Below are positions 1 to 39,842 of a DNA stretch of 64,000 nucleotides, piece after piece; the first letter of the stretch is position 1, and each line of letters opens with the position of its first letter. The notes beneath the pieces were generated by a model. That model saw only the letters and a list, made by a program, of their open reading frames with translations. It was not told where the DNA came from and made no database searches. A program made the translations under genes and the position numbers. The DNA lies in assembly GCA_000004985.1 (NCBI GenBank), contig GG738904.1, one strand, 5' to 3'. The stretch is from Naegleria gruberi (lineage: Eukaryota).

Positions 1-301
1 CCCAAACCCAAACCCAAACCCAAACCCAACCCAAACCCAAACCCAAACCCAAACCCAAACCCAAACCCAAACCCAAACCCAAACCCAAACCCAAACCCAA
101 CCCAAACCCAAACCCAAACCCAAACCCAAACCCAAACCCAAACCCAAACCCAAACCCAAACCCAAACCCAAACCCAAACCCAAACCCAAACCCAAACCCA
201 AACCCAAACCCAAACCCAAACCCAAACCCAAACCCAAACCCAAACCCAAACCCAAACCCAAACCCAAACCCAAACCCAAACCCAAACCCAAACCCAAACC
301 C
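1..301 (-). repeat. Terminal telomere array: (CCCAAA)n on the + strand, so the (TTTGGG)n G-strand runs toward the left end; about 50 units
   Basis: Direct reading shows perfect 6-nt periodicity from base 1. Two 5-nt CCCAA variant units lie near 25-29 and 96-100. The array ends abruptly at ...cccaaaccc|acgactaagg. The C-rich strand reading 5'->3' inward is the expected orientation for a left chromosome end. Confidence 0.9.
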
Positions 302-984
302 ACGACTAAGGTCAGACCCAACATTTTTACTTTTATTCATCTTAATTAATTATCTCAATAAATACTCATTATAAATCAATATATTATATATCAATATACT
401 CCAAATTGAATATATAATCATATAATAACATAATATTACATCATTATAATGACTTATATAAGTTAATTTCATATAATAGATTAGACAATTAGAATATCAA
501 TGAAAACATTTCAAATTCAATTCAAATAAATATATCACCTTGTGTATCATGTTAATAACAATATATATCAATTTCAAATACTTTGGTATCATTTCAGGAA
601 ATTAACTATTCAACTTGTCAACTGACCTATTCTAACATTGAAGATAGAATTCTGTTCCACTTCAATTCACTTCCAATACATATATACATGATAATAAAAT
701 ATATTAATATCATTTTGACATTCATCCATATTATACATGGTACATGGCTGATCCACTTGATACATACAGGATTGTGACATTGACATCTACTATACAGATC
801 ATTATGAAATTGATACAGTGCCTTACTAATGGTGAATAAACACTACTGTATCAGTTTCATGACAATTTGAAATCATTCAACATGTCAGGAGTGTAATCAT
901 GAGAATTATAAATGTCAAGATAATCAAATCATATTAAATTTAAAATCTTTCAATTACAATATCATATTTAGATCAATTAATCAT

Positions 985-13723: not shown

Positions 13724-14154
13724 CCCTAACCCAAACCCAAACCCAAAGCCAAACCCAAACCCAAACCCAAACCCAAACCCAAGCCCAAACCCAAACCCAA
13801 ACCCAAACCCAAACCCAAACCCAAACCCAAACCCAAACCCAAACCCAAACCCAAACCCAAACCCAAACCCAAACCCAAACCCAAACCCAAACCCAAACCC
13901 AAACCCAAACCCAACCCAAACCCAAACCCAAACCCAAACCCAAACCCAAACCCAAACCCAAACCCAAACCCAAACCCAAACCCAAACCCAAACCCAAACC
14001 CAAACCCAAACCCAAACCCAAACCCAAACCCAAACCCAAACCCAAACCCAAACCCAAACCCAAACCCAAACCCAAACCCAAACCCAAACCCAAACCCAAA
14101 CCCAAACCCAAACCCAAACCCAAACCCAAACCCAAACCCAAACCCAAACCCAAA
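13724..14154 (-). repeat. Second, internal telomere-type array, (CCCAAA)n of about 72 units, in the same orientation as the terminal array
   Basis: It starts immediately after the gap. Variant units (ccctaa, caaagc, caagcc, one cccaa) sit in the left part. It is perfect up to the junction ...cccaaac|taaaaatag. Degenerate telomere-like remnants (aaacccaacgttcaaaccctagccc) follow to about 14200. Confidence 0.9.
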
Positions 14155-15022
14155 CTAAAAATAGAATTCTTCTAAACCCAACGTTCAAACCCTAGCCCAA
14201 AATTATAAACTTATTCAAATATCATTAAATTTTATATCATTCGATTGGAAATTATGAGTAGAACAACGTGGTATATTTAGTTTTTCAATTTATAAAATAT
14301 TAAATTTGTTAATAATGTCAGATTAAAATTTCATAAATGAAACTATAGGAAGAATGATAATTTCAAAATCGTTTAATGAGATTATATAGTCAATATCATC
14401 ATTAACAACATTCATAATCACTTTCATATGAAATTTCAAAGGTTCATGTCTGTAGATATAAAAGTATCAAGTGAAAAGGGAAGATGTGAGGTAAAAGAGG
14501 TCAACAATAACTTTTGAGTTTCTCATCAAAACATATTGAATCCTAATATGAAAATGTTCCATTTGATGATTAAACATCGAATATCAAATTTATTTTGACT
14601 TTCATATTTACAGATTTCTTCCCTCAATCACACATGGTCAACTTGTATGAAAAGGAGGAAATCTTGAAAAAGGACCACCTATTGAAACTTTACCATCATG
14701 ATGTAGATGATATATAATGATGTAGAATTCAATTTCATATCATAAGAATTAGAAATGGTACCATGGGAATGTAAATGTTGATTTTCCAAAGTTGACTGAN
14801 AGGAAAGACAAGTCAGACCAAGTCTATCAAATATATCACTTCAATCAACAAATTATACATGAAAATGCTCCATTCGATGNNNNNNNNNNNNNNNNNNNNN
14901 NNNNNNNNNNNNNNNNNNNNNNNNNNNNNCATGAGTGCAGAACTGAGTTATTCAAAATTTGTGAATGTTCGGTCCAGTCAAATCAAAGATGGGTTCTTAA
15001 CTACCCATAGGTTTGCATTCTT

Positions 15023-33081: not shown

Positions 33082-34089
33082 ATGACTAGTCAAGAGAGTA
33101 ATGATGGATCAATTTCCTATGGATGGTGGATTGCCACTCTTTTAATAGGAATTGTCCTGATGAGAATATTGCAATTAATTATGAAATTGAAAAGACAAAT
33201 AAGCAAGGCTGGTGGAACTCCTGGTTATTGGCAATTATTGGCTGAAGGCTTGTTTATCATGCCAATTCTTTCGCCCTATATTGCTCATGGTAATTTCCCA
33301 GTGATTCAAGGATTGATTGCTAAGGAGGAAGAGAGAGCTAAGGGAAGTGATGAAAAGCAATTGATTATTCGTGTCAGTACTCCCTATAGAAATAATTATG
33401 TAATTTGGGATAAGGATTCAGTGAAGGAAGTTTTAGTTACAAAATCATCATCCTTTCCAAAACCTTTGGATTTTTATGAACCTTTCAATATTTTCGATAA
33501 GGATGCTACTTCAATTTTGACAGCTGCCGATGGTCCAGTTTGGAAGAATCATAGACATGTGGTGGCTCCTTCATTCTCAACTGGTAATTTGGTTTTTATG
33601 AGTCAAGTGACTGTAAAGACAGTTGATGCATTGTTTAGAACAAAGTGGAATAAGTTATTGGACCAGGATAGTAAGGGATTCATTATGGATATGGAAGATA
33701 CTACAGCTGTCACTCTTCAAATTATTGGTGAAAGTGGATTTGGTATGGATTTTGGTGTTTTCGATGAAACTAGCTCTGATTCTAAAAAGTTTAGAGAAGC
33801 ATTGAATATTGTCGTGAGAGTTGACTATTATGCCAGATTCTTCCTTGCTAAAATCCCATTCCTTTACAATGCAGTTTCTGATTATACTGGAAATACAGAA
33901 GCTCTCAAGGTGATGAGTGAAAAGCTTGAACAATGCATTTCTCAAAGAGTAGCCGAATTCAAACAAGATCCAGAAAAACCAATGAATGATTTATTGTCGC
34001 TCCTTGTTAAGGCAAACATGATGGATGAAAAACTCACACTCAATGAATTGAAGAGTAACAGTTACATCTTCGTAGTTGCAGGTCATGAG
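33082..34089 (+). CDS. Cytochrome P450 (copy 1), 5' portion, ending inside the I-helix motif ...FVVAGHE; interrupted by a 5.09-kb insertion
   Basis: N-terminal TM anchor (WWIATLLIGIVLMRIL) and an alignable paralog at 55239. The frame reads gca ggt cat gag then tat tga. The missing continuation TTATTMQW... is found at 39234. Confidence 0.8.
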
Positions 34090-34618
34090 TATTGAAAATC
34101 AGAAGGTGTTCTTAAAGATGGTCACTGGTGCCATCAATGGTTTGATTCGTGGATTTTGGTTAAAGATATTATTCCACTTGAAGAACATTCTTCAATTATT
34201 AGGAGATGTTACAGCATGCTATGTGGAAAGTACCGTTAATATTTCCAAAGATATTTTGGAAATGTACAGTTTCATAATGAAGGAATCATTTTTGGAAAGA
34301 TTAAATTCAAGAATTGAGGAGAGAAATCTTTTATGTATTGATTTTGAAATTGTTAACAATGGATTGGTAGATAGGAATGCAGAGTGTTTTAACTCATGGT
34401 ATGAAAATGTATCTAAACATCTTATTGATTGGTCAAGTAAGGCTGTAAGTAATCGATTTGCAGAGTTTACAGAGTTAGTGGATGAAATTTTTGGTCAAGT
34501 TAAGAATGATTATGCAATGATTGCTGATAAAACTATTGAAAAGAGAACAATGGAGTATAATTTTATTACTGAAAAGAAGAGAAGATTGACAGAATTGATC
34601 AAAGAGTTAAAAAAGTAG
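34085..34618 (+). CDS. Hypothetical helical protein (177 aa), first ORF of the insertion
   Basis: Its ATG is the ATG inside the left CATGAG junction repeat. The peptide is MSIENQKVFLKMVTGAINGL...KKRRLTELIKELKK. No family recognised. Confidence 0.35.
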   Translation: MSIENQKVFLKMVTGAINGLIRGFWLKILFHLKNILQLLGDVTACYVESTVNISKDILEMYSFIMKESFLERLNSRIEERNLLCIDFEIVNNGLVDRNAECFNSWYENVSKHLIDWSSKAVSNRFAEFTELVDEIFGQVKNDYAMIADKTIEKRTMEYNFITEKKRRLTELIKELKK

Positions 34619-34675
34619 ATTGGTAATGAGTAAATTGAATTGTGTCTGTGCAATTCTGATTGTATTCTTGTAAAG

Positions 34676-35070
34676 TGGTGATGGTACCTGTCAGGTACCG
34701 TCACAGGTACTTGGCAGGTACGATTTTTACCATCACAGGTACCGTCACAGGTACTTGGCAGGTATCACAGGTACCATCAGGTACCATCAGGTACCATCAC
34801 AGGTACCGTCACAGGTGCAAATGGTACCTGACAAGTACAATCACAGGTACCGTCACAGGTATCTGAATTTCCTCACAGGTACCATCACAGGTACTTGGCA
34901 GGTATCACAGGTACCATCACAGGTACCATCACAGGTACCGTCACAAGTACTTGGACCATCACAAGTACCCTTACAAGGACTTGTAAGGTGCTCAACACGT
35001 ACCTACAGTGTCTGACAAGTATGGTACCTCACAATAACCATCACAGCTACAACAAACACCATAACAAATA
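34676..35070. repeat. Degenerate minisatellite, about 12-bp unit CACAGGTACC(R)T with a palindromic GGTACC core, about 28-30 units
   Basis: Direct reading: ...ggtaccgtcacaggtacttggcaggta...ggtaccatcacaggtaccatcacaggtaccgtcaca... It lies between the convergent 3' ends of ORF 34085-34618 and gene 35100-36299. Confidence 0.85.
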
Positions 35071-35099
35071 CTTTTTATATCTCCTCCAATCAACTATAT

Positions 35100-36299
35100 T
35101 TATTTGAAATATTTGGATTTCTTAATAGGTCTATGGACATTATGATCATTTTCTGAATCAGAACTAATACCACCTCTATCTGAAGAATCTTCTTCAACAT
35201 CTTCTTCTTCATCATCCTCTTCAACTTCACAATGATCAGCATTTCCAAAGCAAATATTGTACCAAATTGGAGGACCTTCATCAGACTTGTTACAATCATC
35301 TTTATCCATTTGCTTTTCAAAGAATAACTCCATTTCAAAGGCATCAAGTTCTTCATTCAATTGAATAACATCCTTAACAGGTGGTTCTATGATGGCTTCC
35401 TCTTCAATATAACCATTCTCATTGTAACGATTGATGAGAAGAACTGTTTCCTTTGAGGTGTCAAATATCTCTTCTTCCTCCTTCTCATTAAAATCAATAC
35501 TTTCATCATCTGCTATAGTTGCAGATTCCTTCTTTTCATACTCCACAATTAAATTCAAACCACTAACATCTGGTTTGATTACAAGACTGGAAAGCGTGTC
35601 TTCATTTAGAGATGGCAAATCATCATATGGGAAAACAATACTTTGAGTTTCACTAACGGATGAGTATCCATCTTGATCTGCTCTAGCCATTTCGACAGAA
35701 TCATCATCAGTGAGTGCATCATCTTCTGTTAGAATCAATGGTTCATTAAATACATCAACTTGTTCTTCCATCTGAGTTTCTGCACTTGATATAATCAATA
35801 AAGGTTGAACCAATTCATATCTCTCATTGGTGTAAGAGTAAAGGTCAATGTCATCATTGTTTAATAACAAGTTTAACAATGTTGAATTACTAGTCTGTGA
35901 AAGCACTTTTCCCTTCTTACTAAACTCTCCAACAAATGCTTGGAAATTGAATTCACTATTACATTGTTCCAACTCTTTGAAATAAATCAAAGAAGGGTTC
36001 ATTTCAAGTAAATCTGCCAAATCTTCTAATTTACTATCCATGGATAAAAAGTCATCATGCTTCTTCTCCTTAAAAATCAAAAGTAAGAGACAAAGTGCAA
36101 AATAATCACAAGAGTAATCTGCTGATAATCCATTAATATCATCTTGATTGATAGGATCGTTACCAAGCCAAAAAGATGTCAATTCCTTCCTTAGCTTGAT
36201 ATCCAAATAACAGAAATCACTGACAACTTCACTATAAAATTTCTTCTTTACTAATTCTTCTACTAAACACCACTTGTTGAAATATGTATTGTACAACAT
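35100..36299 (-). CDS. Acidic hypothetical protein (399 aa) inside the insertion
   Basis: Uninterrupted ORF from ATG 36299 with a D/E-rich C-terminal half (EVEEDDEEEDVEEDSSD). It is divergent from the Myb-endonuclease gene across a 345-bp spacer containing a (TA)n tract. Confidence 0.5.
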   Translation of the reverse strand: MLYNTYFNKWCLVEELVKKKFYSEVVSDFCYLDIKLRKELTSFWLGNDPINQDDINGLSADYSCDYFALCLLLLIFKEKKHDDFLSMDSKLEDLADLLEMNPSLIYFKELEQCNSEFNFQAFVGEFSKKGKVLSQTSNSTLLNLLLNNDDIDLYSYTNERYELVQPLLIISSAETQMEEQVDVFNEPLILTEDDALTDDDSVEMARADQDGYSSVSETQSIVFPYDDLPSLNEDTLSSLVIKPDVSGLNLIVEYEKKESATIADDESIDFNEKEEEEIFDTSKETVLLINRYNENGYIEEEAIIEPPVKDVIQLNEELDAFEMELFFEKQMDKDDCNKSDEGPPIWYNICFGNADHCEVEEDDEEEDVEEDSSDRGGISSDSENDHNVHRPIKKSKYFK

Positions 36300-36644
36300 G
36301 ATGGATTATTCCTTTTTTTTCAAAAACAAAAGCTTTCACACAACCTCGAGTCGTGTGAAATGTCTCACACTCTAATATTTTAATATTTTTATAAGGCTTG
36401 AATATATATATATATATATTGAAAAGGGATTGACCGAAACTGGAAGACACATTAATTGGATATCTAAAGAGACCAAACAAATTTTCCTCAGAATTGAAGA
36501 GTCACGTCGCTACGTCCCTCAAGACATCCACACAACTTTGCAAATTAATACAATTGAGAAAAAAAAACTACTTTTATTTTCGACTCAACTTTGTTACAAG
36601 TAACAACACACATCAAATTCCAACACAGAACTCAATATAGCAGA

Positions 36645-38966
36645 ATGATAAGAAAAAACTGGTTAAAAGAAGAAGAAGATCTTTTGGTCAAATTGGTAAA
36701 GGAAAAAGGCCACAATTGGACTGAAATTGCTCCCAACTTCGATGTTACTCCAAATGCCTGCCACAAAAAGTATAAGGATTTGTTAAAGAATCTTGGCAGG
36801 AAAAGATCGTTCTGGACTGATGAAATGAAAGCTAATCTCCTTAAATTAGCAAAAGAATATGCCGATAAAGGAATAGAGAAATGGAAGATTATTGAGGAAA
36901 AATTAGGAAAAGAAGCTAAAGCTTGCCAACAGCATTTTTATTATTTAGTCAAACAGCACGGGTTGGATTCTAATGATTTCAACAGCGTCAGACCATTTTG
37001 GACCATGGAAGAGAAGCGCGAATTGACTGAGTTAGTCAATTTGCATGGAAGGAAGTGGAAGAAAATTGAGAAACTAATTAGCTGCAACAGAGATGCTCAT
37101 TCTTGTCAGAGCCAGTTTATGCTATTAGAAAGTAGACAGAATGATCCAATTGAAAAGAAGTTGAACGATATCTTTCAAGCAACGACTTCAGAGACAGATT
37201 TGAATGAAATCTCTCTTTACGAATTCTTCAATATCCCAACAAGTAGATACAATGGGGTTCCAGCATCGACTTTGTTGGTGGATCAAGCAGATGAAGTTGA
37301 TGAAGAAACATTTCATCGTTCTTACATGGCTGGAGATACTGAATTTAGTGTACGTGAGGTTGCAACTGGTAGATTGGTCAGAAAAACCATTGAGGAGATT
37401 TATCTTTCCAGTGGAACATATGAAACATATAGTATTGAATCTGGATTTAATGTGGAAGAAATTGGTAAGTTTCGTTTCAATTACTATTTTCAAAGAATAA
37501 TAATAATGAAAGAATGTAAATTGTTTCCAGCAAATGAAGTATTAGAGTTGAGTGCTACTTGTTTCAAAGCAAAATTATATTTCAATGAATGTGCTCGAAT
37601 TGTTGAAGAGAAACGTTTCATATTTTCCGAACAAGTTCAAGTCCGTCCAGATGAGTGCAGTAGTGTGAGATTACCTGTATCAGATCTTCAAGACAATATG
37701 TTCATCATTAATAACTATCAATTGAAATCCAAGGAAAAGCTTGTAAGAACATCATTACCATGTGGTCAACTTACTGACACCACCCAAACAAAAGAATGTA
37801 AGTATTTTATGAATTATTCTCATAATATTTTAAAGATTTTGACATTTTGTTCAGAACTTTCCCAACTCTAGTTGACTCCAAAGACAAACAGGGAGTCATG
37901 GTTCAACTATTGGGAGCCTATTTAGCAGATGGTGATGGAGGATACTTTAAATTGTATTTTAATGCCAAAAATGAGCAAGAACTTACCTATTATTTTACAG
38001 ATTTCTTAAAAGAAATTTGTGAATTGAATTCAGAGACAATAAGAGAGGATCTTAAATTCAAGAAAGAGGAAGAGTATGTCACCATTAAGCTCAATGATAA
38101 GAATGCTGACAAGGATATTGAACGAGTCTTACAAAATGGTTATCAAATATCCGGGTCCATACTTGTTGCACCTGCATGGTATGTTTTTCACTTTCAATAC
38201 ATTTTTACTAGTAACAAATAGTACTGGCTTACACAGATTTTTAAAAGAAATAGAATTGTTATGTAATAAGTATAATGGCAGTTACCAAACTAGAAAGAAT
38301 TTCTCTTCCATCTTCAACATTACAAATTTTGGTATGTTTAGCTTGTACAAATTTTTCGAAGGTTCTGTACAAGGAGATGGCACATTAGAGAGTAATCGTG
38401 TAACGTTTGGTCAGAATTGTTCAATTTCAGATACTCACCAACAGTACTTTAATCAGGTCCACCATTGTGCAACCATGCTTGGGTTAAAGACTGGCGTGGG
38501 TAAAGTGTGTGAAGAAACTACAGGTTTGAAAATGACTGGTAAGAACATGACCATTTTTGAAAGTGAAGGACTTGAGAAAAAGAAAGTAAATGCAGATGTT
38601 GTGTTTAGACCATTTAATCTTACAGTTCAAAGATTAATAGGTGAATCAATGAAGAAGATGTACTGTTTCAAGAAGAGTAATCACTCCTTCCCAATGTTTA
38701 ATGGAATGATAGTGCAAAATGTTGATACTGATCTAGTTTCTGCTAAAATATGTTATGGGAATAGATGGGAAATTCGTGAAATGGACAACTATGAATCTGC
38801 TGCCACTTTCTGCTTGAAGAAATATATTGCTTCCTTAGGGTTTCCAAGTGACCGTATGACAAGAAATGCTGTAAGAAGATTAATACTAAAAATAGAAGGA
38901 ATAGTATCTGTTAAAAGAAAGCAAAAATCAAACAAGGAATCAAACAAGAAAGTTAAAACACAATAA
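36645..38966 (+). CDS. 3x Myb/SANT repeats fused to an intein-derived Hint domain with an embedded double-LAGLIDADG homing-endonuclease domain (HO-like architecture), 746 aa
   Basis: Exons 36645..37797, 37836..38178, 38222..38966; the 38-nt and 43-nt introns keep frame. Myb repeats: KNWLKEEEDLLVKLVKEKGHNWTEIA, SFWTDEMKANLL...KWKIIEEKL, PFWTMEEKRELTELVNLHGRKWKKIE. Intein block A YMAGDTEFSVREVATGRLVRKTIEEI; LAGLIDADG-1 QLLGAYLADGDGGY; LAGLIDADG-2 LYKFFEGSVQGDGT; blocks F/G KSNHSFPMFNGMIVQNV. Confidence 0.75.
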
Positions 38967-39060
38967 CATTTCAATTAAAGAATATATTTACTGAACTTTA
39001 TTAAATGACTTTTTATTTCTGAATAAACAAAAGTATATTGAGCACTTTTGCATCCATTTG

Positions 39061-39178
39061 AAAATTGACAATCATTTCTGCTGAAATGGTCATGTAAGAA
39101 GTATGAATTATGTCATTCTGGAAACTCTTCGTATTCATCCACCTGTAACATGTGTTTAGAGTTGCTAAGAAGACAACC
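39061..39178 (+). pseudogene. Orphan, frame-broken cytochrome P450 fragment (K-helix ExxR region) at the right edge of the insertion
   Basis: It reads ...MNYVILETLRIHPPVTCV*, then after a frame shift RVAKKTTT. At nucleotide level it is closer to P450 copy 2 (atgaactatgtc...attatggaaact) than to copy 1. It is out of order relative to the host gene. Confidence 0.55.
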
Positions 39179-39233
39179 ACATGAGGTTCGTGTTTTATAA
39201 TTAATTTTACAAGTGTTTAACAAAATATTTAAG

Positions 39234-39842
39234 ACGACTGCCACAACCATGCAATGGTTAATGTACGAATTGTCCAAGCGTCCAGAAGCTCAACAAAAGG
39301 CCAGAGAAGAAGCAATCAGAATTGGAGGAGGTGACAATGTTTTGAGAGCTCCAGATTTTGATGATTACAACAATATGGACTATATTCATGGTTGTGTAAT
39401 GGAATGCTTACGTCTCCATCCACCAGTCGTTTCCATGGTAAAAACCTGTGCCAAATCTACCAAAATTGGAAAAACAAGCATTCCAAAGGGATCTTGCATC
39501 TATGTAAATGCCAAGGCCTGTCACTTGTACGGTGAAGATTTTAACACCACTGAATTTACTGGTGCTCAATTCGCTCCAGAAAGATTTTTGGATAAGGATT
39601 TCAAACAAAAGGTTCAAACAAGTGGAGCATGGTTCCCATTCAATATGAGTAATAGAAAATGCATTGGTTACATGTTTGCCCAAATTGAATTGTGTATCAT
39701 GTTGTGTAGAATGTTGCAATTTTATGAATTCAAATTGTTGAATGATGAAAGTAAACCAGCTGAGAAGGTTGAAGATCTTCCTGGTATTACCTTTAGACCA
39801 TCTTCTAATTTGAAGGTTTTGGTAACAAGAAGAACAAAATAA
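39234..39842 (+). CDS. Cytochrome P450 (copy 1), 3' portion
   Basis: It begins TTATTMQWLMYEL, the continuation of AGHE|TT. It carries ECLRLHPP (ExxR), FAPERF and the heme loop FPFNMSNRKCIGYMFA. It is preceded by catgag (39180-39185) and a 48-nt GT-AG intron (39186-39233). Confidence 0.8.
   Translation, partial: TTATTMQWLMYELSKRPEAQQKAREEAIRIGGGDNVLRAPDFDDYNNMDYIHGCVMECLRLHPPVVSMVKTCAKSTKIGKTSIPKGSCIYVNAKACHLYGEDFNTTEFTGAQFAPERFLDKDFKQKVQTSGAWFPFNMSNRKCIGYMFAQIELCIMLCRMLQFYEFKLLNDESKPAEKVEDLPGITFRPSSNLKVLVTRRTK

What the first reader, a model, noticed from the sequence alone, without database searches (positions are those of the whole stretch)
34676..35070. GGTACC-core 12-bp minisatellite inside the endonuclease cassette
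About 28-30 degenerate units of CACAGGTACC(A/G)T fill the space between two convergent genes. Each unit holds the palindrome GGTACC, and variants include GGTACTTGGCAGGTA. No other array of this kind occurs in the window. Three overlapping ORFs read through it (GTITGTVTG, VPSQVPSQ, RYRHRY), which is typical of non-coding periodic DNA. Its position inside a cassette encoding a Myb-domain endonuclease makes it a candidate binding or cleavage array, or a recombination hotspot. This is speculation.
Basis: seen in the sequence. Interest (0 to 1): 0.5.

Follow-up and report, generated by a model that had tools for sequence, protein, structure and literature searches.

The report
Non-coding minisatellite inside a Naegleria insertion
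The 12-bp GGTACC repeat is a real but non-coding, length-unstable minisatellite that travels with a 5.1-kb Naegleria gruberi-specific gene cassette inserted into a cytochrome P450 gene; nothing tested here shows that it is a protein-binding or cleavage array.

Summary
The array at 34676-35070 is real and unique in the window. It holds 14 of the window's 17 GGTACC sites, and the 10-mer occurs 14 times against about 1 expected by chance. It has about 20-24 recognisable units, not 28-30. The basic unit is TGTGAYGGTACC on the minus strand, organised in a 44-nt higher-order repeat (12+12+9+11), with inverted units at the left edge. It is non-coding: no frame spans it, codon scores are negative in all six frames, and 44 is not a multiple of 3.

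The window is Naegleria gruberi subtelomeric DNA. The array lies between the stop codons of two convergent orphan genes inside a 5144-bp insertion (34090-39233). That insertion splits a P450 gene exactly at its I-helix (AGHE|TT); the orthologues in N. fowleri and N. lovaniensis are uninterrupted.

An independent environmental copy has the same array after the same ORF-B stop codon and differs by exactly one 44-nt block. So the array is linked to the cassette and changes length.

The neighbouring protein has confirmed Myb repeats, but its "endonuclease" identity rests on two GDG motifs only. Every profile, structure and symmetry test failed or was negative. The array resembles neither the insertion site nor known Myb motifs.

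Verdict: an ordinary element-borne minisatellite in an unusual, uncharacterised cassette.

The parts
34676..35070 (.). The minisatellite as reported. Unit is CACAGGTACC(A/G)T on the + strand, or TGTGAYGGTACC on the - strand.
   Evidence: TRF period 12/44/108. Motif enrichment 14 against 1.09 expected. 14 of 17 GGTACC sites in the window.
34694..34963 (-). Well-preserved core of 270 nt with 20 ACY|TG unit junctions at spacings 12,12,12,9,11,12,20,12,12,20,12,12,10,10,9,11,12,21,11. The 44-nt higher-order repeat is TGTGACGGTACC + TGTGATGGTACC + TGTGATACC + TGCCAAGTACC.
   Evidence: Unit dissection. TRF period 44. Internal 79% self-match 34681-34838 against 34821-34968.
34678..34699 (+). Two units in inverted orientation at the left edge. 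They form 14-22-nt inverted repeats with the other units and with the right edge (35023-35044).
   Evidence: the repeat finder I1-I8, 82-100% complementary. Single-strand DNA fold -74.8 kcal/mol, z = -8.1 against shuffles.
34964..35099 (-). Degenerate proximal part of the array directly after the ORF-B stop codon. It reads SICYGVCCSCDGYCEVPYLSDTVGTC* in ORF-B's frame after TAA-ATA-TAG. The first ~70 nt are identical in the independent copy L001.
   Evidence: 95.6% identity to L001 over 136 nt.
34085..34618 (+). ORF-A, 177 aa, an orphan with no gene model in the protein database. It has coding-like codon usage. Its ATG lies in the host P450 codons C-ATG-AG, and its stop is ~60 nt before the array.
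   Evidence: Codon log-odds +0.28 in frame against -0.41 and -0.38 out of frame. No family or PDB match. No homologue returned.
35100..36299 (-). ORF-B, 399 aa, an acidic orphan protein (NAEGRDRAFT_73306), convergent with ORF-A. A 99%-identical paralogue (NAEGRDRAFT_65339) lies on another scaffold.
   Evidence: Codon log-odds +0.37. No family or PDB match.
36645..38966 (+). Gene for a 724-aa protein (NAEGRDRAFT_73307) with three Myb repeats (residues ~4-165) and a near-orphan C-terminal region carrying two GDG motifs at residues 395 and 528. It has 4 exons and 3 canonical GT..AG introns of 66, 41 and 46 nt.
34090..39233 (+). The 5144-bp insertion that contains ORF-A, the array, ORF-B and the Myb gene. 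It has no terminal inverted repeats, and only the dinucleotide AG is shared at both junctions.
   Evidence: Junction sequences. Pfam P450 profile position 276|276. Orthologues are continuous across the junction. TIR test.
33082..34089 (+). Host cytochrome P450, N-terminal half, ending ...FVVAGHE.
   Evidence: Pfam PF00067 E = 1.4e-17, profile positions 37-276. Alignment to N. fowleri and N. lovaniensis orthologues.
39234..39842 (+). Host cytochrome P450, C-terminal half, starting TTATTMQW...
   Evidence: Pfam PF00067 E = 4.1e-38, profile positions 276-453..
39100..39156 (+). Probable relic of a different P450's K-helix (SMNYVILETLRIHPPVTCV) in the tail of the insertion.
   Evidence: tblastn E = 0.009-0.05 with three orthologues at the same coordinates and in the same orientation.

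Best explanation
The array is a non-coding minisatellite that belongs to a 5.1-kb Naegleria gruberi-specific gene cassette. It fills the ~480-bp spacer between the stop codons of two convergent cassette genes, ORF-A and ORF-B.

Its 12-nt unit (TGTGAYGGTACC) has been amplified as a 44-nt higher-order block. It gains and loses such blocks by replication slippage or unequal exchange. The palindromic GGTACC cores and the inverted units at one end make the single strands strongly hairpin-prone, which should favour such events.

The array is inherited together with the cassette and evolves at the same point-substitution rate as its flanks. Its most likely role is passive: spacer or 3'-end DNA separating two convergent transcription units. 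It is probably not a specific binding or cleavage substrate.

Shown here: existence, non-coding nature, higher-order structure, linkage to ORF-B in a second copy, the 44-nt length change, and the cassette's insertion into the P450 gene. Inferred: the slippage mechanism and the passive spacer role.
For: - The array is real and unique in the window.
- It is non-coding. No frame spans it. Codon-usage log-odds are negative in all six frames (-0.40 to -0.70), whereas ORF-A, ORF-B and held-out genes score +0.17 to +0.37.
- The amplified block is 44 nt and contains 9, 10 and 11-nt units that were themselves copied two or three times. Expansion therefore happened without any reading-frame constraint.
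- By contrast, a coding 12-bp array in the same window keeps an open frame across its whole length.
- An independent copy (ENA metagenome contig L001) has the same array immediately after the same ORF-B stop codon. It is colinear and differs by one 44-nt block.
- Identity between the copies is 95.6-97.7% in the array and 95.5% in the adjacent ORF-B coding sequence.
- The array is hairpin-prone: DNA fold z = -8.1 and eight inverted-repeat pairs.
- There is no Rfam family anywhere in the window.
- The cassette exists in at least two copies in the N. gruberi reference, as gene pairs 73306/73307 and 65339/47624, plus a divergent third paralogue, 76925.
- The cassette interrupts a P450 that is continuous in two sister species.
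Against: - Only one extra copy of the array could be retrieved. It is a truncated fragment at just ~5% divergence, so equal divergence in array and flanks is a weak test of constraint.
- The first ~70 nt after the ORF-B stop are 100% identical between copies while the ORF-B tail has 13 differences. This could hint at a conserved 3'-end signal.
- The rest of the N. gruberi genome could not be scanned, so neither array presence in cassette copy 2 nor absence elsewhere is established.
- A passive role is a default position, not a demonstrated one.
Confidence: 0.6

Rival explanations
1. The array is a cis-acting set of binding sites for the cassette's own Myb-repeat protein. It could work like the Reb1/TTF-I terminator arrays, which block read-through transcription or replication forks, here between the two convergent genes. 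Alternatively it could work like the repeated 12-bp protein-binding motifs of some transposons, which mark the element for its own protein.
For: - The array sits exactly between two convergent coding-like ORFs.
- It travels with the cassette.
- A sequence-specific DNA-binding domain is encoded 1.6 kb away. Three Myb repeats pass the Pfam thresholds, and the best PDB match is the terminator-binding protein Reb1 (5eyb, E = 5.9e-6).
- The motif appears in both orientations.
- The most conserved segment, GGTACCTGTGA, spans unit junctions and recurs 8 times.
Against: - None of the recalled consensus sites for c-Myb, plant MYB, Reb1 or TTF-I occurs in the array.
- The motif is absent from the rest of the cassette, including the divergent promoter region.
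- Unit spacing is irregular (9-21 nt), and point divergence shows no extra constraint.
- The Reb1 match is only marginally better than c-Myb (E = 1.2e-4) and reflects generic Myb repeats.
- Binding cannot be tested with these tools.
Confidence: 0.18
2. The array is the decayed remnant of a cysteine-rich coding repeat, (C-D-G-T)n, that was once the C-terminal extension of ORF-B or a separate small gene. It has since expanded as junk.
For: - The basic unit is 12 nt, which is 4 codons, and reads C-D-G-T on the minus strand.
- The proximal part reads SICYGVCCSCDGYCEVPYLSDTVGTC in the same frame as ORF-B, separated from it only by TAA-ATA-TAG.
- Runs such as PCKGTCDGPSTCDGTCDGTCDGTCD are open for ~30 codons.
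Against: - Both stop codons after ORF-B and the TGA after ...GTC are conserved in the independent copy.
- Both genomic ORF-B proteins end at the same residue.
- Codon usage is worse than background in every frame.
- The frame-breaking 9, 10 and 11-nt units are part of the amplified block.
- Sharing ORF-B's frame has a 1 in 3 chance expectation.
Confidence: 0.1
3. The array is a generic satellite of the N. gruberi genome, perhaps a subtelomeric one, that happens to lie in this cassette.
For: The locus is ~20 kb from a TTTGGG telomere block. The rest of the N. gruberi genome could not be searched here.
Against: - There is no second occurrence in the other ~45 kb of sequence in the window.
- The only other retrievable occurrence is attached to the same ORF-B 3' end.
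- The 24-nt probe found nothing comparable in metagenome, viral or prokaryotic collections.
Confidence: 0.08
4. The array is a tandem set of cleavage sites, or decoy sites, for a LAGLIDADG-type endonuclease encoded by the Myb gene.
For: Two GDG motifs (LLGAYLADGDG and FFEGSVQGDGT) lie 133 residues apart, each followed by a helix ending in LG-like residues. This resembles double-motif LAGLIDADG enzymes (the pattern is recalled knowledge). Each unit has a palindromic core with a central GTAC.
Against: - No LAGLIDADG or Hint family, PDB or profile hit at E up to 10.
- No internal two-domain similarity (p = 0.71).
- Both structure predictions were unusable.
- The array shows no similarity to the empty P450 site, which a homing enzyme should recognise (p about 0.25).
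- An element that cuts itself would be self-destructive.
Confidence: 0.04

Closest known systems
Minisatellites with higher-order repeat structure carried inside mobile or duplicated elements (established knowledge of tandem-repeat biology)
   Same: Short 12-nt units are grouped in a larger amplified block of 44 nt. The array is non-coding, carries degenerate variants, lies inside a multi-copy insertion, and changes copy number between copies in steps of one block.
   Different: The units carry a 6-bp palindrome, and one end of the array is inverted. The carrier is not a recognised transposon class: it has no TIRs, no transposase and no reverse transcriptase.
Reb1 / TTF-I terminator (Sal-box) arrays bound by Myb-like proteins (recalled knowledge; PDB 5eyb was the top hit)
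   Same: Repeated short elements with a palindromic restriction-site core lie downstream of transcription units, and a multi-Myb-repeat protein is present. The best PDB match of the cassette protein's Myb region is S. pombe Reb1.
   Different: There is no sequence match to Reb1 or Sal-box consensus sites. This is not an rDNA context. Units are 12 nt and tightly tandem rather than ~18 bp and spaced. Binding is untested.
Repeated 12-bp protein-binding motifs in subterminal regions of En/Spm (CACTA) transposons (recalled knowledge)
   Same: A 12-bp motif is repeated many times in direct and inverted orientation within a mobile element that also encodes a DNA-binding protein.
   Different: Here the array is internal, between two genes, rather than subterminal. 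No transposase, TIRs or 3-bp target duplication were found.
Homing-endonuclease elements and HO/VDE-type LAGLIDADG proteins (this concerns the cassette, not the array)
   Same: The insertion sits precisely at a highly conserved coding site of a host gene and is absent from orthologues. The encoded protein has a DNA-binding module and two LAGLIDADG-like GDG motifs. There are several copies in one genome.
   Different: There is no statistical or structural support for a LAGLIDADG fold. The insert is neither an in-frame intein nor, as assembled, a frame-preserving intron. It carries two further genes. The gene itself has spliceosomal introns.

Membership tests
Non-coding minisatellite | Head-to-tail copies of a 10-60-bp unit, well above chance | tested here: met
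   TRF period 12, 20-23.5 copies. The 10-mer occurs 14 times against 1.09 expected; 0 of 100 shuffles reached this.
Non-coding minisatellite | No reading frame maintained and no coding-type codon usage | tested here: met
   No frame spans the array. All six frames score -0.40 to -0.70, against +0.17 to +0.37 for genes. Amplified units of 9, 10, 11, 20 and 44 nt.
Non-coding minisatellite | Copy-number variation between independent copies | tested here: met
   The window and L001 differ by exactly one 44-nt block in an otherwise colinear alignment of 96-98% identity. Only one comparison was available.
Cassette-specific (not dispersed) repeat | Occurs only next to cassette genes | tested here: inconclusive
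   Both known occurrences follow the ORF-B stop codon. There are none elsewhere in the window or in the three collections scanned. The N. gruberi genome itself, including cassette copies 2 and 3, could not be retrieved.
Coding tandem repeat (Cys-rich CDGT) | Open frame across the repeat, joined to a start codon or exon | tested here: not met
   Stops occur in every frame. The two stops after ORF-B are conserved in L001.
Myb/SANT DNA-binding protein (neighbouring gene) | Myb repeats above the curated Pfam thresholds | tested here: met
   PF13921 72-75 bits and PF00249 71-74 bits against cut-offs of 22.9 and 24.4. PDB hits to Reb1, c-Myb and SNAPC4.
LAGLIDADG homing endonuclease (neighbouring gene) | Two LAGLIDADG motifs with acidic catalytic residues ~100-130 residues apart | tested here: inconclusive
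   LLGAYLADGDG at residue ~387 and FFEGSVQGDGT at ~521, read by eye; the GDG triplets are at 395 and 528. Short motifs alone are not diagnostic.
LAGLIDADG homing endonuclease (neighbouring gene) | Significant match to a LAGLIDADG or Hint profile, or to a solved LAGLIDADG structure's sequence | tested here: not met
   There is no such hit at E up to 10 in Pfam, NCBIfam, PHROGs or the PDB, using the single sequence, the sub-region or the 3-sequence profile.
LAGLIDADG homing endonuclease (neighbouring gene) | alpha-beta-beta-alpha-beta-beta-alpha pseudo-dimeric fold | tested here: inconclusive
   Two AlphaFold2 runs gave mean pLDDT of 30.8 and 32.2, so no fold search was justified. The internal half-against-half similarity was not above shuffles (p = 0.71).
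Homing element (intron- or intein-borne) | Insertion at a conserved site of a host gene that is uninterrupted in relatives | tested here: met
   The P450 profile reads 276|276 at the junction. Three orthologues or paralogues in N. fowleri and N. lovaniensis read ...AGHE|TTSTT... without a break.
Homing element (intron- or intein-borne) | Removable without damaging the host gene (in-frame intein, or a self-splicing or spliceosomal intron) | tested here: not met
   The insert is 5144 nt, not a multiple of 3, with genes on both strands. The only GT..AG pairing (GA|GTATTG...TTTAAG|ACG) shifts the frame by -1. One additional G would repair it.
Cut-and-paste DNA transposon | Terminal inverted repeats, a target-site duplication and a transposase | tested here: not met
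   There is no TIR (best local score 7 over 9 nt). Only the dinucleotide AG is shared at both junctions. No transposase domain was found in any cassette ORF.
Protein-binding site array (Reb1/TTF-I-like or transposon subterminal-repeat-like) | Units match the binding consensus of the cognate protein, or binding is demonstrated | not testable with these tools
   The specificity of this Myb protein is unknown. Recalled consensus sites of c-Myb, plant MYB, Reb1 and TTF-I are absent from the array.

The most novel reading that the evidence does not exclude
The 5.1-kb cassette is a new kind of nuclear mobile element. It would be a homing-type element whose Myb-plus-LAGLIDADG-like protein targets the conserved I-helix codons of cytochrome P450 genes. 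It would have moved between P450 paralogues, which would explain the foreign K-helix relic in its tail. It would be, or until a one-base change would have been, removed from the host mRNA as a spliceosomal intron. Within it, the GGTACC array would be the cis-acting binding platform for the element's Myb domain.
Probability: 0.06. Interest if true: 0.85.

Novelty: new member of a known kind. Interest (0 to 1): 0.33.

Why it matters
On its own, the array is an ordinary unstable minisatellite. At most it could serve as a strain-typing marker for Naegleria gruberi isolates that carry the cassette.

The follow-up uncovered something of more value around it. A lineage-restricted, multi-copy, three-gene cassette is inserted with codon precision into the most conserved helix of a P450 gene. 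It encodes an intact, intron-containing Myb protein whose C-terminal two-thirds has no relatives outside N. gruberi among 1.84 billion representative proteins.

If that protein proved to be a site-specific nuclease, this would be a rare case of a homing-like element in a nuclear protein-coding gene of a free-living protist. The array would then become the obvious candidate for its cis element. Nothing tested here establishes that.

Tried and rejected
1. Ciliate origin and genetic code. The CCCAAA repeats first suggested a ciliate. I rejected this because genes end at standard stops, introns are canonical GTAAGT..AG, and the protein hits are Naegleria gruberi. TTTGGG is the reported candidate N. 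gruberi telomere repeat.

2. Coding Cys-rich repeat on the minus strand. Rejected because of frame breaks, conserved stops and negative codon scores.

3. Array as a copy or decoy of the P450 insertion site. The local alignment is no better than shuffled or random 60-mers.

4. Terminal inverted repeats or a clear target duplication. None found.

5. Retrieving the other genomic copies. Exact-protein look-ups for P0001, P0002, P0003, P0018, ORF-A, ORF-B and the last-exon ORF all failed. Only the 86-aa fragment P0005 led to a contig.

6. Scans for a 24-nt two-unit probe. None in viral contigs. The one metagenome hit is an unrelated GC-50% contig with ~3 short units, which I inspected. Three prokaryotic genomes each gave a single match; I could not inspect those (L003-L005) because the script stopped when their sequence files were missing.

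7. Endonuclease verification. Pfam, PHROGs, NCBIfam, three PDB searches, two structure predictions and an internal-symmetry test were all negative or unusable. I did not run a fold search because the models were too poor to be meaningful.

8. Rfam screen of the whole window. No family found.

9. Literature. Nothing on a nuclear Myb-LAGLIDADG gene, this cassette or this repeat in Naegleria. The rDNA-plasmid paper gives no repeat sequences to compare.

10. One of my own coordinate slips (ORF-A start at 34086 instead of 34085) caused a failed call and was corrected.

Full report
**1. What is there**

The stretch 34676-35070 is a genuine degenerate tandem array. Tandem Repeats Finder reports period 12 (20-23.5 copies, 66-70% matches, 13% indels) and higher-order periods of 44 and 108. 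The 10-mer CACAGGTACC, with at most one mismatch, occurs 14 times inside the array and once elsewhere in 64 kb. Chance expectation is 1.09, and none of 100 shuffles reached 15. Fourteen of the window's 17 GGTACC sites lie in these 395 bp, and GGTACCTGTGA occurs eight times, only here.

Read on the minus strand, the unit is TGTGAYGGTACC. In the well-preserved 270-nt core (34694-34963) there are 20 ACY|TG unit junctions, with spacings 12,12,12,9,11,12,20,12,12,20,12,12,10,10,9,11,12,21,11. The block TGTGACGGTACC-TGTGATGGTACC-TGTGATACC-TGCCAAGTACC (12+12+9+11 = 44 nt) recurs and matches the TRF 44-nt period. The two leftmost units (34678-34699) are inverted relative to all the others, giving eight inverted-repeat pairs. 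The single strand folds far better than shuffles (-74.8 kcal/mol, z = -8.1).

**2. It is not coding**

On the minus strand the unit reads C-D-G-T, and runs such as PCKGTCDGPSTCDGTCDGTCDGTCD are open for about 30 codons. I therefore tested a Cys-rich coding repeat seriously, and four results argue against it:
- No frame spans the array.
- The frame-breaking 9, 10 and 11-nt units are themselves part of what was amplified.
- The amplified block is 44 nt, not a multiple of 3.
- A codon-usage log-odds score trained on confident genes of the window is negative in all six frames (-0.40 to -0.70). ORF-A, ORF-B and held-out genes score +0.17 to +0.37 in their true frames.

A different 12-bp array in the same window (59035-59197) serves as a positive control. 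It keeps an open frame across its whole length and encodes TPSK-type repeats leading into a histone-H3-like sequence. No Rfam family matches anywhere in the window.

**3. Where it sits**

The window is nuclear DNA of Naegleria gruberi:
- The Myb ORF equals the predicted protein NAEGRDRAFT_73307 with its introns removed.
- Genes use the standard code and canonical GTAAGT..AG introns.
- The CCCAAA arrays at 1-302 and 13724-14155 are the reported candidate telomere repeat TTTGGG of this species (PMC3622300). The locus is therefore about 20 kb from a chromosome end.

The array lies between the stop codons of two convergent ORFs. ORF-A (34085-34618, +) is unannotated but coding-like. ORF-B (35100-36299, -) is NAEGRDRAFT_73306. 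Both are orphans.

These ORFs, the array and the Myb gene (36645-38966, four exons, three canonical introns) together form a 5144-bp insertion (34090-39233). The insertion splits a cytochrome P450 gene exactly between the codons for ...VVAGHE and TTATTMQW..., which is the I-helix. The Pfam P450 profile ends at position 276 on one side and resumes at 276 on the other. The orthologues in N. lovaniensis and N. fowleri are continuous through ...AGHE|TTSTT....

The insert has no terminal inverted repeats and shares only the dinucleotide AG at its two junctions. As assembled, the only GT..AG pairing (GA|GTATTG...TTTAAG|ACG) would shift the P450 frame by -1. One additional G would make the insert a perfect phase-0 intron. 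This is an observation I cannot resolve.

The tail of the insert carries a probable relic of another P450's K-helix, VILETLRIHPPV. It was hit by three orthologues at the same coordinates with E = 0.009-0.05.

**4. Is the array tied to the cassette?**

The cassette is multi-copy. ORF-B has a 99%-identical paralogue (NAEGRDRAFT_65339) on a 573-kb scaffold next to a second Myb-gene copy (NAEGRDRAFT_47624). A third, divergent paralogue (NAEGRDRAFT_76925) lies on a 2.7-kb scaffold. I could not retrieve the DNA of those loci.

An 86-residue fragment in the same protein cluster did lead to an environmental contig, L001 (1097 bp, ENA ERZ929261). It carries the last ~100 codons of ORF-B followed by the same array, colinear with the window until the contig ends.

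The two copies differ in the array by exactly one 44-nt block. Outside that indel, identity is 95.6% in the degenerate proximal part and 97.7% in the canonical units, against 95.5% in the adjacent ORF-B coding sequence. Upstream of the ORF-B fragment, L001 is unrelated AT-rich DNA, so that copy is truncated.

A 24-nt two-unit probe gave nothing in viral contigs. The single metagenome hit is an unrelated GC-50% contig with about three short units. The probe also matched once in each of three prokaryotic genomes; I did not inspect those loci because the script stopped before reading them.

Both known occurrences of the array are therefore attached to the ORF-B 3' end, and its length changes in units of the higher-order block.

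**5. Is it a binding or cleavage array?**

The Myb part of the neighbouring protein is solid. Three repeats pass the Pfam thresholds, and the best PDB matches are Reb1 (5eyb, E = 5.9e-6), c-Myb and SNAPC4.

The endonuclease part is not. It rests on two motifs I could read by eye, LLGAYLADGDG and FFEGSVQGDGT, with their GDG triplets at residues 395 and 528. The tests gave:
- Pfam, NCBIfam, PHROGs and three PDB searches (whole protein, sub-region and a three-sequence profile) gave no LAGLIDADG or Hint hit at E up to 10.
- Two AlphaFold2 runs were unusable (mean pLDDT 30.8 and 32.2), so I ran no fold search.
- The two putative half-domains are no more similar than shuffled sequence (p = 0.71).
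- An exhaustive HMMER pass over 1.84 billion representative proteins found relatives of the non-Myb region only in N. gruberi itself.

As for the array itself:
- It has no significant similarity to the reconstructed empty P450 site (score 11 against a null of 9.5 +/- 1.8; p about 0.25).
- It contains none of the c-Myb, plant-MYB, Reb1 or TTF-I consensus motifs. Those consensus sequences are recalled from memory, so this is a lead only.
- The motif does not recur elsewhere in the cassette.
- It shows no excess sequence conservation.

None of this excludes binding by a Myb domain of unknown specificity, but there is no positive evidence for it.

**6. Most likely explanation and rivals**

My best-supported reading (about 0.6) is that this is a passenger minisatellite of the cassette. 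It is non-coding spacer DNA between two convergent genes. It was amplified as a 44-nt block and changes length by slippage or unequal exchange, helped by hairpin-prone palindromic cores and an inverted end.

The rivals are:
- Myb-binding array acting as a terminator, roadblock or element mark (about 0.18). Its position and linkage favour this; nothing else does.
- Relic of a Cys-rich coding repeat (about 0.10).
- Generic genomic satellite (about 0.08).
- Cleavage or decoy array (about 0.04).

**7. Novelty and score**

The array is a new member of a known kind and scores low to moderate on its own. The surrounding cassette is the more unusual object. It is N. gruberi-specific and multi-copy, inserted with codon precision in the P450 I-helix, and one base short of being a clean intron.

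The most novel reading not excluded is a nuclear homing-type element that uses the array as its cis element. I give that about 6% probability, and it would deserve high interest if true.

Noticed in passing
window 33082-34089 and 39234-39842 (junctions at 34089/34090 and 39233/39234): A cytochrome P450 gene is split exactly at its I-helix (AGHE|TTATT) by the 5144-bp insertion. Both halves are still open and about 60% identical to the intact orthologues in N. fowleri and N. lovaniensis. No N. gruberi gene model for this P450 came back from the protein search.
   Followed up: yes
window 34087-34095 and 39226-39236: The insertion is one base short of being a perfect phase-0 spliceosomal intron. 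The sequence reads GAG|TATTG...TTTAAG|ACG, and GAG|GTATTG would splice cleanly. As assembled, GT..AG splicing shifts the frame by -1. This could be a real mutation, a sequencing error or coincidence.
   Followed up: partly
window 34085-34087: The first ATG of ORF-A lies inside the host P450 codons (C-ATG-AG), 5 nt before the insertion junction. The cassette's first ORF therefore begins in host sequence.
   Followed up: no
window 39100-39156: A short P450 K-helix-like fragment (SMNYVILETLRIHPPVTCV, followed after a frameshift by RVAKKTTT) sits in the tail of the insertion. It differs from the host gene's own K-helix, which suggests the insert once resided in another P450 paralogue.
   Followed up: partly
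window 1-302 and 13724-14155: Long CCCAAA arrays (50 and 72 copies) match the TTTGGG candidate telomere repeat reported for N. gruberi. The second block follows a 6.2-kb run of N, so the window spans joined scaffold pieces, and the cassette is about 20 kb from a chromosome end.
   Followed up: partly
window 59035-59197 (continuing to ~59260): A second 12-bp-period array is coding. It encodes TPSK/TPRK-type repeats that form a long N-terminal tail on a histone-H3-like protein (...[16 protein letters not shown]).
   Followed up: partly
window 57575-57714: A 27-bp and 12-bp tandem array (AAGAACACTGTG...) about 1.3 kb upstream of the H3-like gene. Some frames span the repeat, but its nature was not determined.
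   Followed up: no
window 55245-56919: A second cytochrome P450 paralogue (about 30% identical) that is uninterrupted at the I-helix.
   Followed up: partly
L001 501-786 against window 35387-35103: Between the two copies, the ORF-B C-terminal tail has 12 codon differences, all non-synonymous and none synonymous. This is unusual even for neutral decay. The region is acidic and low-complexity.
   Followed up: no
P0002 (NAEGRDRAFT_47624, not in the window): The gene model of the second cassette copy lacks the second Myb repeat, the first GDG-motif region and one further segment, but is otherwise about 95% identical. Copy 2 may be decayed or mis-modelled.
   Followed up: no
window 36645-38966: The non-Myb two-thirds of the 724-aa protein has relatives only within N. 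gruberi (three paralogues) among 1.84 billion representative proteins. It is absent from the N. fowleri and N. lovaniensis proteomes.
   Followed up: yes
window 35095-35104 and 34628-34636: AATAAA overlaps the ORF-B stop codon, and AGTAAA lies 12 nt after the ORF-A stop. If these act as poly(A) signals, both mRNAs would end before the canonical units of the array. This is inference only.
   Followed up: no
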